From contig OX597814.1 of assembly GCA_951406725.2 (NCBI GenBank), positions 170,314,001 through 170,378,000 of the forward strand: a stretch of DNA of 64,000 bases. The letters are read 5' to 3'. The position numbers and the translations under genes were made by a program. The notes below the pieces were generated by a model. It ran no database searches. It was given only the letters and a program-made list of their open reading frames with translations, and was not told the origin of the DNA. Below are positions 11,378-62,840 of this stretch, one piece after another. This DNA is from Octopus vulgaris. Lineage: Eukaryota. How positions within the stretch are numbered: position 1 is the stretch's first letter; the number at the start of each line of letters is the position of its first letter.

Positions 11378-11572
11378 TACTCTTTTACTCGTTTCAGTCA
11401 TTTGACTGCGGCCATGCTGGAGCACCGCCTTTAGTCGAGCAAATTGACCCCAGGACTTATTCTTTGTAAGCCCAGTACTTATTCTATCGGTCTCTTTTGC
11501 CGAACTGCTAAGTGACAGGGACGTAAACACACCAGCATTGGTTGTCAAGCAATGCTAGGGGGACAAACACAG

Positions 11573-11629
<57 letters not shown>

Positions 11630-11795
11630 TACGACAGGCTTCTTTCAGTTTTCGTCTACCAAATCCACTCACAAGGCATTGGTCGGCCCGGGGCTATAGC
11701 AGAAGACACTTGCCCAAGATGCCACGCAGTGGGACTGATCCCGGAACCATGTGGTTGGTTAGCAAGCTACTTACCACACAGCCACTCCTGCGCCT
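11378..11795 (-). mobile_element. SINE A1, full length (tRNA head, internal microsatellite, CR1-type tail)
   Basis: Reverse complement nearly identical to 12202-12616; tail repeat GAGTAAAA. Confidence 0.92.
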
Positions 11796-12201
11796 TATGT
11801 TGGTAACAACTTTCTCAATTTTTGTAAAAGGCAAAATGTATAAAGCTGAAGGAGGTTTCTCATTCTTACTATGGTATATTTTTTTGAGAAAAATTTCTTT
11901 CTATCTTCAATCATAAAATCTTTTTTTTTTCACCAAATTGTGTTAATAAGTTATTTCTATTACAAATTATTTCCTTATTTTATTGAGATAATGTGTTTAC
12001 TTTTATTTTTCAAATTTAATATTGAAGTACAATCATTTTGTCTTACAGTTTAATATTTTTTAAAAAAAGAAAAGAAAAAATATTTTATCTTGGTGGTGGA
12101 AATTTGTAGTATTAAAGTTGCTACAGAAGTTCAAAGATCCCCAAATATTCAATAACATATTTTGATAGGACACAAACAAATTTTTCTCAGAAATAATACA
12201 T

Positions 12202-12616
12202 AGGCGCAGGAGTGGCTGTGTGGTAAGTAGCTTGCTAAACAACCACATGGTTCCGGGTTCAGTCCCACTGCGTGGCATCTTGGGCAAGTGTCTTCTGCTA
12301 TAGTCCCGGGCCGACCAATGCCTTGTGAGTGGATTTGGTAGACAGAAACTGATAGAAGCCTGTCGTATATATGTATATATATATATATGTATGTGTGCGT
12401 GTTTGTGTGTCTGTGTTTGTCCCCCTAGCATTGCTTGACGACCGATGCTGGTGTGTTTACGTCCCCGTTACTTAGCGGTTCGGCAAAAGAGACTGATAGA
12501 ATAAGTACTGGGCTTACAAAGAATAAGTCCCGGGGTCGATTTGCTCGACTAAAGGTGGTGCTCCAGCATGGCCGCAGTCAAATGACTGAAACAAGTAAAA
12601 GAGTAAAGAGAGAGTA
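12202..12616 (+). mobile_element. SINE A1, full length
   Basis: A-box-like TGGCTGTGTGG, B-box-like GGTTCAGTCCC, ttgggcaagt CORE-like segment, (TA)n(TG)n, tail ggccgcagtcaaatgactgaaacaagtaaaagag. Confidence 0.92.
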
Positions 12617-27388: not shown

Positions 27389-28760
27389 TACTCTTTTACT
27401 CTTTTACTTGTTTCAGCCATCCGGCTGAGGCCATGCTGGGGCACCGCCCTTGTTGCTACCCTCTCTAAGTCCAGTTTGCCGTTGCTGGCCACTGATCTAA
27501 GAGAGAGTTTGTAGCTGCTGCCCTTAGGTTACCTTCGTACCTTGCAGTGGGTTCATCTGGGATCCCGGAAAGCAGCTTGTCTAGATGTTTTTTGAAAATG
27601 TCCACATCCGCATCATGTAGATCTCTTAGTTTTCTTGGCAGTTTGTTGAACAGCTGAGGGCCTCTGAACCCCAGGCTATTACAGTATCTGCTCCTTACCC
27701 TGGATGTGGAAGACGGGACCTTTGGCACCACACAGTGACGTCCTGTACGGGGATTGGAACAGCTCTCAATTCCAAAATTTGGTGCTAGTCCCTCCAGGAT
27801 TTTCCATATGTATATCACTGCATATCTCTCTCGTCTTCGTTCCATCATCATCATCATCATCATCGTCGTTTAACGTCCGTTCTCCATGCTAACATGGGTT
27901 GGACGGTTCGACCGGGGATCTGGGAAGCCAGAAGGCTGCACCAGGCTCCAGTCTTATCTGGCAGTGTTTCTACAGCTGGATGCCCTTCCTAACGCCAACC
28001 ACTCCGTGAGTGTAGTGGGTGCTTTTTGGAGTACAAATTGAGTTCCCTAAGCCTCTCCCAATAGTTCTTTTCTTTCATGGTGGAAATCCTCTTGGTGAAA
28101 TGTCTTTGGATTGTCTCAAGCTCTGTGGTTAGTTTGACACTATGTGGTGACCACAGTTGGGAGCAGTAGTCCAGGCGGCTTAGGACAAATGTCCTCCATA
28201 GTGTCAACATGGTCTCGCAGTCTCTTGTCCGGAATGTCCTCAGGATCCAGCCAGTGAGTCGTCTGCACATTGTCGCCACCTTCGCGATGTGTGAAGAAAA
28301 ACATCCATCGTCACTCATGTCTATCCCCAGGTCCCGTATTGATTTCGATACTGGGTTTTCGATCCCTCCTGGACCAGTATAGTTGTGTTGTAATGTATAT
28401 GTGTTTACAGCTTGATATTGTAAGGCTTGAAATTTACCAGCATTAAATTGCATGTTGTTGTCTTCAGCCCATTTGTATATGGCATCCAGATCTTGTTGTA
28501 AAAGGTCAGCATCAGCTGGGTTTTTGATTGCCTGTGCTACCTTTGTGTCATCAGCATAGCTAGTGAGGGATGTTGTTTGTGCTACCAATGTCAGAGAGCG
28601 CCACCAAAAACAGCAAGGGTCCCAAGACTGTGCCCTGTGGCACCCCACTTGCTATTGGTGTCTTTCCCGAGAGGGCTCCATTGGCTGCAACCATCTGGCT
28701 TCTGTCCTTCAGGAAGTCATGTATCCACTCACCTACTTTTCCTGTTATGCCGAGTCTGAG
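27389..28760 (-). mobile_element. 5'-truncated CR1-group LINE: RT domain end, C-terminus and 3' UTR, one frameshift, interrupted by a 182-bp insert
   Basis: SGVPQGTVLGPLLF, YADDTK, LQQDLD..YKW...NMQFN..K, RDLGI, SRLDYCSQLWSP, LNLYS-MERRRER; stop at 27465-27467; 8-bp tail repeat GAGTAAAA. Confidence 0.92.
27845..28026 (-). mobile_element. Young RTE 3' end (family B) inserted into the CR1 ORF
   Basis: Near-identical to 45199 copy; removing it rejoins tcgttcca+tggagta in frame. Confidence 0.9.
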
Positions 28761-35270: not shown

Positions 35271-35966
35271 ATGGAAAGGATAATCAATCGACAAACATCG
35301 GCCTGTAGACATTCATTTATATCTATTAATTGATTACAATCATATGTATAATTGATCCAAATATACGAATGAAATAAGCAAATAAACAAGTAAATAAATA
35401 GATAAATAGATAAAAATAAACGAATAAGCATAAATGAGTAAACAAATGCTAAACCCTTATAGCTATTTCTACCATGGGGTTGCCCAATCTTCCAAGTTTT
35501 CCACATCACGCCACAATGTCTTACCCTCGTTATTTCCCCCAGTAAAATTATAATACATTGTATCTCTCAAGACCTGTGGAAATTACTCCTGGGAGTGACT
35601 TTCTTTACCATAAAATGTAATCCCATGGATTAATGGATATCACCTTGGAATTGACGTTTTTGACCGTTCCTTACTATTTCTATTATTTTATTATTTTACG
35701 TTCCTCACATGTTAGATTCCTAACATTATGGTCCAACCCTCTTTTTTTTCTCTTTTACTCTCCTTTACTTGTTTCAGTCATTTGACTGCAGCCATGCTGG
35801 AGCACCGCCTTTAGTCAAGCAAATCGACCCCGGGACTTATTCTTTGTAAGCCCAGTACTTATTCTATTGGTCTCTTTTGCCGAACCGCTAAGTGAAGGGG
35901 ACGTAAACACACCAGCATCGGTTGTCAAACAATGCTAGAGGGACAAACACAGACACACAAACATAT

Positions 35967-35998
<32 letters not shown>

Positions 35999-36590
35999 GA
36001 CAGGCTTCTTTCAGTTTCCGTCTACCAAATCCACTCACAAGGCTTTGGTCGGCCCGAGGCTATAGCAGAAGACACTTGCCCAAGATGCCACGCAGTGGGA
36101 CTGAACCCGGGACCATGTGGTTGGTTAGCAAGCTACTTACCACACAGCCACCCCTGTCCAATGTTTGTTCAACTTTGTAAAATCCCTGTATGATATGGAA
36201 AACTTGGCAGATTGGGCAACCCCATAGTAGAAACAGCCGTAAGCGTTTAGTATTTGTTCACTAATTTATTCTTATTTGTTTATTTATCTATTTATTTACT
36301 TGTTTATTTGCTTATTTCATTGGTTTATTTGGATCATTTATACATATGAGTGTACATATAATTGAATGTTAACTGGCTGATGTTTGTCGATTGTTTGTTC
36401 TCTCCATTTTCTTATTTGCCTTATAAATTCTGGGTAAATTTCTGTTTTACCCCTACCCGTACCTAGTATTCAATTGCGATATTGCCCTGCAATAGTAAGC
36501 ACTTGGATATGAATATGTAGATATACATCCAGTAGTATATTGGATATTTAATATCCCTTAGATGGTTTATTAACCTCTAACTGATACAGA
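35271..36590. mobile_element. Fold-back element: diverged 220-240 bp inverted arms (35271-35508 / 36191-36407), SINE inserted in spacer; Penelope-like by inference
   Basis: tggggttgcccaatcttccaagttttcca vs tggaaaacttggcagattgggcaacccca etc.; 36393-36583 homologous to 29775-29963. Confidence 0.6.
35745..36155 (-). mobile_element. SINE A1, full length
   Basis: Near-identical to 43324 and 11378 copies. Confidence 0.92.
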
Positions 36591-36929
36591 CATATATGTG
36601 TGTGTGTATATATATATATATATTATAGCAGAATGCCTAGCATTGCCCAGGAGGGAAAGTGTCTATAAATAATCCAGAATTGCTTTTAATGAAGGCAGGT
36701 TTTAATAGAACATTTCTAGATTCCTCTTGAAAGGTTAACTTTTATGTAAGACTGCTATAAATGTATTTTCCAATACATTTATAGCAGTCTAGTGTCTTAA
36801 CATGCTGGGTCTTGAATAGGTACTCAAAATTTATGGTATATTTTGTAATGCAATGGTGTAAATTACATAAATCTAAACCAGAAATGTTAAGTAAATGTGA
36901 AAAGTTTTATTTCATGTGAAACTTGTTAT

Positions 36930-37110
36930 CTTTTATTGTGTTTTAGTCATTGGGGTGTGGCCATGCTGGGGCACCACCTTGGGTTTTGTCAAACAAATTG
37001 ACCTCAGTATTTATTTATCTATTCAGTCTCTTTTGCCAGACTGTCAATTTACAGGGACATAAGCAAACCAACAATGGTTGTCAAGGTATAGAAGGGGGAC
37101 AAACAAACAA

Positions 37111-37150
<40 letters not shown>

Positions 37151-37420
37151 GTCTGATACAGCCCCTCAGCTTACCAGCTCTGGTCAAACTGTCCAACCCA
37201 TGCCAGCTTGGACAACAGACATTAACTGATGATGATGATGATAATATATGATGGGCTTCTTTCAGTTTCTGTTTATCAAATTCACTCAGAAAGTTTCGAT
37301 TGGCCCAGGGCTATATAGTTGGTAAAAGACACTTGCCCAAGATACCATGTAGTGGGACTGAACCCAATCCCACATGTTTGGGAAGCAAACTTCTTGACCA
37401 CACAGCCACATTTACACCTA
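36930..37420 (-). mobile_element. Diverged SINE A1 with a family B tail fragment (about 37155-37243, + strand) inserted at its microsatellite
   Basis: A1 tail and head flank gtccaacccatgccagcttgg...(GAT)n. Confidence 0.7.
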
Positions 37421-43323: not shown

Positions 43324-43739
43324 CTCTCTCTTTTACTCTTTTACTTGTTTCAGTCATTTGACTGCGGCCATGCTGGAGCACCGCCTTTAGTCGAGCAAAT
43401 CGACCCCGGGACTTATTCTTTGTAAGCCCAGTACTTATTCTATCGGTCTCTTTTGCCGAACCGCTAAGTGATGGGGACGTAAACACACCAGCATCGGTTG
43501 TCAAGCAATGCTAGGGGAACAAACACAGACACACAAACATACACACACACATATATATATGTATATACATATATACAACAGGCTTCTTTCAGTTTCCATC
43601 TACCATATCCACTCACAAGGCTTTGGTCAGCCCGGGGCTATAGCAGAAGACACTTGCCCAAGATGCCACGCAATGGGACTGAACCCGGAACCATGTGGTT
43701 GGTAAGCAAGCTACTTACCACACAGCCACTCCTGCGCCT
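43324..43739 (-). mobile_element. SINE A1, full length (decayed + strand A1 tail at about 42770-42955)
   Basis: Near-identical to 11378 and 35745 copies. Confidence 0.92.
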
Positions 43740-44496
43740 ATCTTGGTTAGATCTGGAATTGTGGTTAAAACACAGCCTGATCAAGGTGTGAGTTACTTTA
43801 GTCCATCTGTGGAACTAAATACTTCTGTCTCTGATAAATTTGTGTCCTTGAGCAGTCAATATAAGAAATAATTATCATGACAGCAACAAGACATTAATGT
43901 CAGCTTAATCAAAGAAAACAGATGTCATGCAGTGCAGACCTACACAACGTCTGCCAACTTAGGAAATGGATATAAGACATGACAATAATGATGATAGTCT
44001 AATAAGATAGTTCCTGATGGATGTGTAGGTTGCCTACCATCACTCTTGTTTATGAAGAAGCCTTAGGATAGGCTACTTAAGTAAACATATGAAAATTTAG
44101 TCAAACAAAGAAGCAGTTCTATCTGTAATTTTATTTATGGAGATCTTTGTTTTGACATTTTGAAACTTAATTGAAGAAAAGTAGACTGCTGCATGAAGCA
44201 GGTCAAGTAAACAAACCGCTTAAAATCCTTTGTTTTGTTGAGGCTGGGTCAGCCCTGATAGTGCAGTCCTATGATCAAAGACATTCAGCCTCTGACCATC
44301 CAGTGAAAAAAAAAAATTTTTTTCTTCCTTTATTTAATTTTTTCAGGCTTTTGTTTTTCTATCCAATATGTAGATTTCTGTATTAGGATAGATATTATTG
44401 TTGATTACCATTTTAAATTATATTTGACCACTGTACAAAAAACAAAAACAAACTCCAAACATTTCTGTGGAATCAGACTCTGATTTATAGGTTTAA

Positions 44497-49052: not shown

Positions 49053-49720
49053 TAGGTGCAGGCATGGTACCTTGGGTGTCTTCTACTATAGCCCCAGCCC
49101 AACCAAATTCTTGTGAGTGGTTCTGGTTGGTGGAAACCGAAAGAAACCTGCTGTGTATATATATTTATATATTTATATGTATCAAGTGAAAATCTAAATC
49201 GATCAACATCAATGGAAATTGCAGCTGTGATACCAGTGCCGGTGGTACGTAAGAGAACCATCCGAACGTGGCCGTTTGCCAGCCTCGTCTGGCATGTAAA
49301 AAACACCCACTACACTCACGGAGTGGTTGGCGTTAGGAAGGGCATCCAGCCATAGAAACTCTGCCAGATCAGACTGGGCCTGGTGCAGCCTTCTGGCTTC
49401 CCAGACCCCAGTTGAACCGTCCAACGCATGCTAGCATGGAAAGCGGACTCTAAACGATGATGATGATGATGATGTATATGTGTTACTTTCTCCTTGTCTT
49501 GACCTTATATGAGAGTTGTAAACAAGTGTTACTGTTAGGTGGGTGGTGTCCTGTTCCAATTTCCAGCCTCTGGTCATGAAGAAATATTAACTTACTTGGA
49601 AACAAGTGAGGGTTGGTGACAGGAAGGGCATCTAGCTATAGAAAATCCGCCTCAACAAAAATTCCATTTAACCCATGCAAACATGGGATTGTGTACATTA
49701 AACCAATGCTGATGATGACA
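49053..49720 (+). mobile_element. SINE A2 with a young family B insert (49183-49474) in its internal microsatellite
   Basis: A head before, A2 body and tail after; insert ends (GAT)n. Confidence 0.8.
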
Positions 49721-60874: not shown

Positions 60875-61285
60875 TCTCTCTCTCTTTTTCTCTTTTTACT
60901 TGTTTCAGTCATTTGACTGCGGCCATGCTGGAGCACCGCCTTTAATCGAGCAACTCGACCCCGGGACTTATTCTTTTGTAAGCCCAGTACTTATTCTATC
61001 AGTCTCTTTTGCCGAACCGCTAAGTAACAGGGACATAAACACACCAGCATTGGTTGTCAAGCAATGCTAGGGAGACAAACACAGACACACAAACACACAT
61101 GCATATATATATACATATATACGACCTTCTTCATTCAGTTTCCGCCTACCAAATCCACTCACAAGGCTTTGGTTGGCCTGAAGCTATAGTAGAAGACACT
61201 TGCCCAAGGTGCCACGCATTGGGACTGAACCCGAAACCATGTGGATGGTACGCAAGCTACTTACCACACAGCCACTCCTGTGCCT
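60875..61285 (-). mobile_element. SINE A1, full length (decayed family B at about 60577-60790)
   Basis: Colinear with 11378 copy. Confidence 0.9.
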
Positions 61286-62840
61286 ATGCAATCAAAATTT
61301 CTTTAGAAAGCTGTTCATATCCATACTCATCACATTATCATACCAGTCTCTCTTGCACACTATATCTATTGTTTGGCCTGGATGATGAAAATTAACTAGT
61401 TGCATTCCACTTGTACCCAGGCCTGCCTGATACTTGTCCTCATTACTCGTTTTACTCCACCCATAATATGGCCCACCTGTCCCCTACATCCAAGCCCAGC
61501 TCTAACAACTTCACTCAACCTTAGATGTTTCTTCTCCATGTCAAGCTGCTGGAATTTCTCTTCCATCCAAATCTTTCCTGCAGACATCTATTGACAGATG
61601 TTTAAACAAAACATCGACTGTATCAATCTCCCAGTCACAGAAGTCCTATGTAGGTCACAGACACTGCCTGTTCTTCCTTATTAAACTATAAAAATTTTAA
61701 AAGATTGAAATAAAATGTTACATCTCTCAAATGGTAGCAGGGTAATGTGATTGCCTTTCCCCTCTTTTTTATTCTCCACCACCACCACATTCTAATGAAA
61801 CCTACTATGAAATTAACTGTTTGATTTTTATCTTTACTTTTGATGTGACGTCTGGCAGTTCAGACTGTTTGATTGCACTAATTTAAAGAATTGGCATTTA
61901 AACTATTTTAATGAATTTTTCTTTTTCGTATGTCTTACAATTTTTAATTAAAAACCTATCTTAGATTTATTTTTTAAGTGCCATGGATTAGTAGAATCAT
62001 TAGAACGTCAAGAAAGATTCCTTGTGGCATTGAGTTAATGACCTTTTATATTCCGAGTTCTAACCTTGCTGAGATAACTTTGCTTTCCATCCTTTTGGGC
62101 CAGTTCAATAGTGAAGTAATAGGGTTGATGTAACTGACTTCCTCCTTCCCTCCTAAATTTGAAGCCTCGTACGGAATCATTATTTTTAGCATAATTTTCT
62201 CCTGTTCCAAGCTTGTGGTACAAGAATACTTTACTTATACATTTTTGTTAGCCTTTTATTTGATTCCCGTCTTACGCTGTTGTGATAGGAATTTCTTACA
62301 AAACAATGTGATAAGCAAAATTGGTTTTATTCACTTGATGAAAGCAAGCAAAGGGGAAAAGAAGCAAAGTAAAAATTAGTAAAATCTTGTGGTTTACTTG
62401 AAGTATTTCAAGTATGTTATTAACAGATAAAAGATTATTATTAGAAGGTTAAAAACAATACTGATTACAGAAGACCAAATAAAATCAGTTATATCAGCTT
62501 TAAATAACCCTTATCATAAACTGATAAATCTGTGGATGTTCAACAGTTGTTAGGAATAAGTAATTGTCATCAGCAATTCTATTGAACAAGAAGAGCATTA
62601 TAGATTAAAAACAAAAACGTCTTCAAGAATGGTAATCATCAAGTGCCATTTGTGTTTTGTTGTAAATTAATTACAATTAATTGATTTATTTTGTTTTACT
62701 ATTTTGATTCAACTTTTGCAATCTAGGTTAACAAGGGAATTGTGTGGATACTCTGTCTACTAGAAATAACAACCAAATCTCTTTCATATCACACAGTAAG
62801 GAGACATTGAAGAATATGATTTTATATATATACATACATA

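What the first reader, a model, noticed from the sequence alone, without database searches (positions are those of the whole stretch)
27389..27449. SINE A1 tail equals the 3' UTR of the CR1-group LINE here, with a compensatory base pair
Seen: just past the LINE stop codon the minus strand reads ggcggtgccccagcatggcctCAGCC-GGAT-GGCTGaaacaagtaaaagagtaaaagag; SINE A1 reads ggcggtgctccagcatggccgCAGTC-AAAT-GACTGaaacaagtaaaagag. C-G versus T-A preserves the stem while the loop varies. Established: CR1/L2-group RTs recognise a 3' stem-loop plus short tandem repeat shared with partner SINEs. Inference: this LINE family or a close relative mobilises A1.
Basis: partly seen in the sequence, partly recalled or inferred. 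Interest (0 to 1): 0.7.

Follow-up and report, generated by a model that had tools for sequence, protein, structure and literature searches.

The report
Jumping gene and hitch-hiker share tail
A broken self-copying element (LINE) ends in nearly the same 60-letter tail, predicted to fold into two hairpins, as an abundant short repeat (SINE) in this genome, so the SINE likely borrows the copying enzyme of this LINE or a sister family, a well-known kind of partnership.

Summary
Confirmed, but ordinary. A 5'-truncated LINE (minus strand, about 28760-27389) stops at 27465-27467. Fourteen bases later begins a 61-nt tail 88.5% identical to the best of 12 SINE A1 tails in the window. 'Equals' overstates it: 7 of 42 positions differ, five unpaired and two forming the C-G/U-A pair, and all 12 pairs are kept. 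Seven of 10 distant LINE relatives (39-45% amino-acid identity) end in the same layout of two hairpins, RAAC and a short repeat. So the tail is likely native to the LINE, not a stray SINE piece. That descriptor was written after seeing them, and a blind covariance model was not significant. Other copies of this exact family were not examined. In zebrafish L2 elements the loop sets specificity, and both loops differ here, so a sister family is the likelier partner. Such pairs are in print for bivalves; I found none for octopus, the likely host.

The parts
28587..28754 (-). 5'-most surviving piece of LINE ORF2 (inside the RT domain); the element is 5'-truncated next to a (TA)n run
   Evidence: tblastn with P0004 residues 671-726, 77% identity; sequence
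28028..28582 (-). ORF2, RT and following region, after one frameshift near 28585
   Evidence: tblastn with P0004 residues 730-914, 65%; weak RVT_1, E 0.0014, below the Pfam cut-off
27843..28027 (-). nested 5'-truncated copy of a second SINE-like repeat with a (GAT)n end; interrupts ORF2
   Evidence: 19 other matches in the window, best 95.7%; junctions
27465..27842 (-). ORF2 C-terminal 125 codons and stop codon
   Evidence: 66-69% identical to P0001-P0005, which end within about 10 residues of the same place
27429..27448 (-). tail hairpin 1: 3 pairs, G.G mismatch, 4 pairs, 4-nt loop (predicted)
   Evidence: fold; pair counts in the window and with distant relatives
   Evidence: fold; alignment A4; pair counts
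27389..27413 (-). AAAC motif and terminal 8-nt tandem repeat (AGTAAAAG, about 2.5 units); end of the element
   Evidence: sequence; same repeat ends the SINE copies
43326..43741 (-). full-length SINE A1 copy (about 415 nt: tRNA-like head, body, TA/TG run, shared tail); best tail match
12200..12614 (+). full-length SINE A1 copy
   Evidence: 93.5% to the 43k copy
11378..11804 (-). full-length SINE A1 copy
35749..36156 (-). full-length SINE A1 copy
60877..61287 (-). full-length SINE A1 copy

Best explanation
The 61-nt tail is likely the native 3' UTR of a stringent-type, probably CR1-group LINE, and SINE A1 likely took it from this LINE lineage so that the lineage's ORF2 protein would bind and copy A1 RNA. 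Shown: the tail follows the ORF2 stop by 14 nt, is 88.5% identical to the A1 tail and ends in the same 8-nt repeat. Predicted: it folds into two hairpins. Inferred from eel and zebrafish L2 elements: ORF2p binds the stem-loop and starts reverse transcription in the terminal repeat at a nicked target. This copy is dead (5'-truncated, one frameshift, a nested SINE). The working partner is more likely a sister family whose loops match A1 (about 0.45) than this exact family (about 0.35).
For: Position at the natural ORF end. Tail match E 1.6e-17. LINE-only letters at columns 3 and 24 and G at 30 and 35, seen in 0 of 11 SINE tails. Seven random changes keep all 12 pairs in 2.6-9.7% of trials, and lose no Watson-Crick pair in 0.7-1.7%. 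A matrix built only from window sequences put its best site exactly on hairpin 1 in 5 of 10 distant loci. A descriptor hits 7 of 10 loci once each, after ORF2 and before a short repeat, against 0.2 hits per shuffle of all ten. Those loci lie in two lineages apart from the window's. Hairpin 1 shows 6 two-sided changes at 3 pairs, reached by 0 of 500 shuffles. Mechanism: PMC1636434 passages, PMC4176376 abstract and section 13.
Against: No second copy of this LINE family was seen: none in the window, no genome held. The run search (0.82 of 40 words in 18 rows) cannot tell whether the tail words are among those held, as about 6 of 40 touch the tail. The blind covariance model gave only E 0.34 (L006) and 3.7 (L002) at the tails, below a chance A-rich match. 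In the blind matrix test only L006 stood out by score (8 of 300 shuffles), and the five hits are one lineage. The descriptor and the rows of alignment A5 were chosen after seeing the data. L004, L005 and L010 show no such tail. Both loops differ between LINE and young A1. The LINE-SINE covariation is a single pair.
Confidence: 0.8

Rival explanations
1. A1 took its tail from this lineage long ago but is now copied by an unrelated LINE that needs only the terminal repeat or a loose stem.
For: Both loops differ between this LINE and young A1. No intact LINE with the A1-type loops was seen.
Against: The six youngest A1 tails differ at only 0-2 of 42 columns and 93.8% of pair cells are kept over 12 rows, as expected if the fold is still needed.
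Confidence: 0.09
2. The tail is a piece of an A1 copy that landed by chance just behind the stop codon, or was joined by a template switch in this one insertion.
For: A1-like pieces cover 9.2% of the window, another SINE did insert into this LINE, and only one LINE copy is in hand.
Against: No other tail lies between stop and match (14 nt). The tail has letters absent from all 11 aligned A1 tails and keeps all pairs. Distant relatives have the same layout at the same place.
Confidence: 0.06
3. The flow was the reverse: an ancestor of this LINE family swapped its tail for an old A1 tail and the whole family carries it.
For: Three older A1 copies share the LINE's C in loop 1.
Against: The layout is present in two other LINE lineages, so it is older than A1 and LINE-borne.
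Confidence: 0.05

Closest known systems
BivaV-SINE2 and BivaCORE-SINE1 with CR1-14_CGi (Nishihara 2016, PMC4824008; passages read)
   Same: Mollusc SINE sharing its 3' tail with a CR1-group LINE, argued from stem-loops with compensatory changes.
   Different: Other host class. Three short motifs of this tail or its relatives gave no tail match in the two supplementary files searched; one file was not searchable.
Bivalve SINE-LINE pairs with CR1, CR1-Zenon, Nimb and L2 (Martelossi 2024, PMC11481361; passages and supplementary file 4)
   Same: Shared tails of 35-61 bp at 72-95% identity; this pair (61 nt, 88.5%) lies in that range.
   Different: None of the five printed tail alignments resembles this tail by eye; the paper does not mention octopus or cephalopods in the main text.
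Eel UnaL2 with UnaSINE1/2, and zebrafish ZfL2-1/ZfL2-2 (PMC1636434 passages; PMC4176376 abstract and section 13)
   Same: About 60-nt tail with a stem-loop, an internal mismatch and a short terminal repeat; the tested model for the mechanism.
   Different: L2 clade, one long hairpin with a GGAUA loop and a 5-nt repeat; here two short hairpins and an 8-nt repeat, untested.
Octopus SINEs OK, OR1, OR2 (Ohshima and Okada 1994; seen only as citations)
   Same: A1 may be one of these: tRNA-like head, and a body that resembles the CORE domain (resemblance recalled, from no call).
   Different: No sequences were available, so identity was not tested; no LINE partner for them appears in the pair table of PMC3747384.
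CR1-Zenon (bioRxiv 10.64898/2026.01.13.699120; passages)
   Same: CR1-group element of marine invertebrates with endonuclease and RT.
   Different: Zenon is said to end in poly(A); this element ends in an 8-nt repeat.

Membership tests
SINE-LINE pair with shared 3' tail (stringent type) | SINE 3' end homologous to the extreme 3' end of a LINE | tested here: met
   88.5% over 61 nt, 14 nt after the ORF2 stop
SINE-LINE pair with shared 3' tail (stringent type) | tail folds into a stem-loop kept by compensatory changes | tested here: met
   predicted fold; 12 of 12 pairs kept; one two-sided change between LINE and SINE; 6 two-sided changes among relatives
SINE-LINE pair with shared 3' tail (stringent type) | short tandem repeat at the 3' end of both | tested here: met
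   same 8-nt unit ends LINE and SINE
SINE-LINE pair with shared 3' tail (stringent type) | tail present in many copies of the same LINE family | tested here: inconclusive
   one copy in the window; run search cannot resolve the tail; only distant relatives seen
SINE-LINE pair with shared 3' tail (stringent type) | LINE ORF2p mobilises the SINE tail in trans | not testable with these tools
   needs a retrotransposition assay
CR1-group LINE | ORF2 with AP endonuclease and RT domains | tested here: met
   close full-length relatives P0002 and P0004 carry PF14529, PF03372 and PF00078; shared with other LINE groups, so not diagnostic alone
CR1-group LINE | RT groups with labelled CR1-group references in a tree | not tested
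   no labelled references were available; the tree has unlabelled rows; the CR1-like look of the C-terminal motifs is recalled
CR1-Zenon | poly(A) tail | tested here: not met
   ends in an 8-nt repeat; feature from bioRxiv passage
UnaL2/ZfL2-2-type L2 tail | one long hairpin with GGAUA loop and UGUAA repeat | tested here: not met
   two short hairpins, loop GGAU, 8-nt repeat
tRNA-derived SINE (A1) | tRNA-like head with A and B boxes | tested here: inconclusive
   no ARAGORN or Rfam tRNA hit; by eye the head has A- and B-box-like motifs with one mismatch each (consensus recalled) and acceptor-like pairing
Octopus OK/OR1/OR2 SINEs | sequence identity to the published consensus | not testable with these tools
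   paper and repeat libraries not available; three A1 motifs found in 0 papers

The most novel reading that the evidence does not exclude
A tandem two-hairpin 3' signal with a near-invariant purine-purine mismatch marks an unnamed, wide lineage of marine-invertebrate LINEs, and its octopod branch is the so far unreported engine of one of the SINE families that dominate octopus genomes.
Probability: 0.35. Interest if true: 0.45.

Novelty: new member of a known kind. Interest (0 to 1): 0.27.

Why it matters
SINEs dominate the octopus repeat landscape (PMC9068888 passage), and A1-like pieces fill 9.2% of this window. Naming the LINE lineage behind A1 would explain part of that expansion and give a ready test pair. 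The conserved first hairpin also offers a natural mutational map of a LINE 3' recognition signal outside the L2 models. The principle itself has long been established.

Tried and rejected
No whole genome was held, so same-family copies could not be collected, and no read or contig evidence on the tail was obtained. Protein-guided scans of viral and prokaryote contigs found no relative. Tail patterns found 0 matches in genome contigs, and 1 and 120 in viral contigs; none of these 121 loci has LINE-coding sequence, so they were rejected as chance. The blind covariance model did not detect distant tails significantly. Rfam gave nothing at gathering score in the window and only chance hits on tail and SINE. 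A target-site-duplication search on six A1 copies gave only 6-8 nt matches in three, which is chance level. The tree is the quick version on 132 columns; the careful search did not finish. CR1-Zenon membership was rejected on the tail type. Albertin 2015 is not held. Eleven other window ORFs had no Pfam hit, so no host gene confirms the species.

Full report
Observation. It follows an open frame that ends in TAG at 27467-27465. BLASTN of this end against the window finds 12 SINE tails at E 1.6e-17 to 1.7e-4, the best 88.5% identical over 61 nt, starting at 27451. The tails are similar, not equal. The LINE differs from the six youngest A1 tails at 7-8 of 42 columns, while those differ from each other at 0-2.

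The LINE. tblastn with full-length relatives shows three pieces: 28754-28587, 28582-28028 after a frameshift, and 27824-27477. A 185-nt copy of a second repeat with a (GAT)n end sits between the last two; it has 19 other matches in the window. The element is 5'-truncated beside a (TA)n run and is the only copy in the window. The C-terminal piece finds 75 relatives; the only ones with a species name are two Argonauta hians proteins at 63% and 62%. A quick tree groups the window protein with P0001-P0006, including both Argonauta rows, at support 99. The host is therefore likely an octopod; this is inferred. Full-length relatives carry endonuclease and RT domains. CR1-group is plausible, but no labelled references were available. 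Zenon is said to have a poly(A) tail (bioRxiv 10.64898/2026.01.13.699120, passages), which this element lacks.

The SINE. A1 is about 415 nt; five full-length copies are 87-94% identical to each other. Twenty-seven BLAST pieces, one of them the LINE tail, cover 9.2% of the window. Its head looks tRNA-like by eye, but ARAGORN and Rfam find no tRNA. A resemblance of its body to the CORE domain is recalled, not tested.

The fold. Folded separately, LINE and SINE tails give the same two hairpins (z -2.5 to -3.4 for the 53-56 nt pieces, but -0.7 for the longer LINE piece). Hairpin 1 (27448-27429, with a G.G mismatch) was missed. Over the LINE and 11 A1 tails, 93.8% of pair cells are kept and two pairs change on both sides (8 of 500 shuffles). 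Of the seven LINE-SINE differences, five are unpaired and two form the compensatory pair. Seven random changes keep all 12 pairs in 2.6-9.7% of trials, and lose no Watson-Crick pair in 0.7-1.7%. This is supportive but rests on one pair.

Is the tail native to the LINE? Same-family copies could not be examined: no genome is held, and the run search cannot resolve the tail, because the 7 missing words of 40 are about as many as touch it. Distant relatives give an indirect answer. A scan of metagenome contigs returned 10 loci, nine at 39-45% identity and one 26-residue match. Seven end in two hairpins, RAAC and a short tandem repeat. A descriptor hits those seven once each, against 0.2 hits per shuffle of all ten, but it was written after seeing them. 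L004, L005 and L010 have no hit; L010 is broken early and its contig ends soon after.

Blind tests were mixed. A matrix from window sequences alone put its best site on hairpin 1 in 5 of 10 loci, though only L006 stood out by score (8 of 300 shuffles). A covariance model from the window reached only E 0.34 and 3.7. The seven loci fall into two lineages apart from the window's. In a 10-row alignment of chosen tails (LINE, two A1, seven loci), hairpin 1 is 94.8% paired, with 6 two-sided changes at 3 pairs (0 of 500 shuffles for cells, 45 of 500 for pairs). Together with the 14-nt gap to the stop codon and the LINE-only letters, this makes a stray SINE piece unlikely.

Mechanism. In eel UnaL2 the roughly 60-nt tail has a stem-loop and a terminal repeat, both required, and it lets UnaSINEs be mobilised in trans (PMC1636434, passages). 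In zebrafish L2s the stem is recognised generally and the loop specifically; loop swaps sharply cut activity (PMC4176376, abstract and section 13). By analogy, ORF2p of this lineage likely binds the A1 tail and primes in the 8-nt repeat. Both loops differ between this LINE and young A1, and several sister families exist at 66-69% identity, so a sister family is slightly likelier as the working partner. None of these steps is shown for this element.

What is known. Shared SINE-LINE tails are general, with CR1 and RTE most frequent (PMC3747384, passages and part 1 of the table section; octopus is not mentioned). Bivalve SINE-CR1 pairs with compensatory changes are in PMC4824008 (passages). PMC11481361 lists tails of 35-61 bp at 72-95% (passages and supplementary file 4; its FASTA file and one PDF could not be read). 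I also read passages of PMC4758252, PMC9068888, PMC5786205, PMC10294476 and PMC5804259. Nine literature searches showed no octopus SINE-LINE pair and no two-hairpin tail of this kind. Ohshima and Okada 1994, Albertin 2015, Repbase, Dfam and SINEBase were not seen and may hold it. The scan's own notes have nothing on this DNA and two tail-hairpin notes on other genomes.

Verdict. A real and well-observed SINE-LINE tail pair, a new member of a known kind. The most useful addition is the conserved first hairpin. Interest 0.27.

Noticed in passing
window 27843-28027 (-): A second SINE-like repeat with a (GAT)n end is nested in the LINE and has 19 other matches in the window. Its end looks like an RTE-type tail (recalled), which would mean a second partner LINE.
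   Followed up: partly
window 27451-27410 (-): Six of the seven LINE-SINE differences are transitions with G or C in the LINE and A or T in the SINE. This fits drift of the SINE towards AT; four could also be read as A-to-G changes in the LINE RNA.
   Followed up: no
window 19918, 36981, 42904: Three older A1 copies share the LINE's C in loop 1, so older A1 subfamilies are closer to the LINE there.
   Followed up: partly
window 27422-27419 (-): The LINE's hairpin 2 loop GGAU resembles the GGAUA loop of eel UnaL2; may be chance.
   Followed up: no
window 49076-49474 (+) and 36929-37409: Composite or nested repeats: a middle part of A1 followed by the second SINE's body at 49k, and an A1 copy interrupted by an inverted piece of the second SINE at 37k.
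   Followed up: no
L007, about 40-95 nt after the stop at 1885: A long near-perfect inverted repeat lies inside the 3' UTR, upstream of the conserved tail, and is absent from the related L009; possibly a small inserted element.
   Followed up: no
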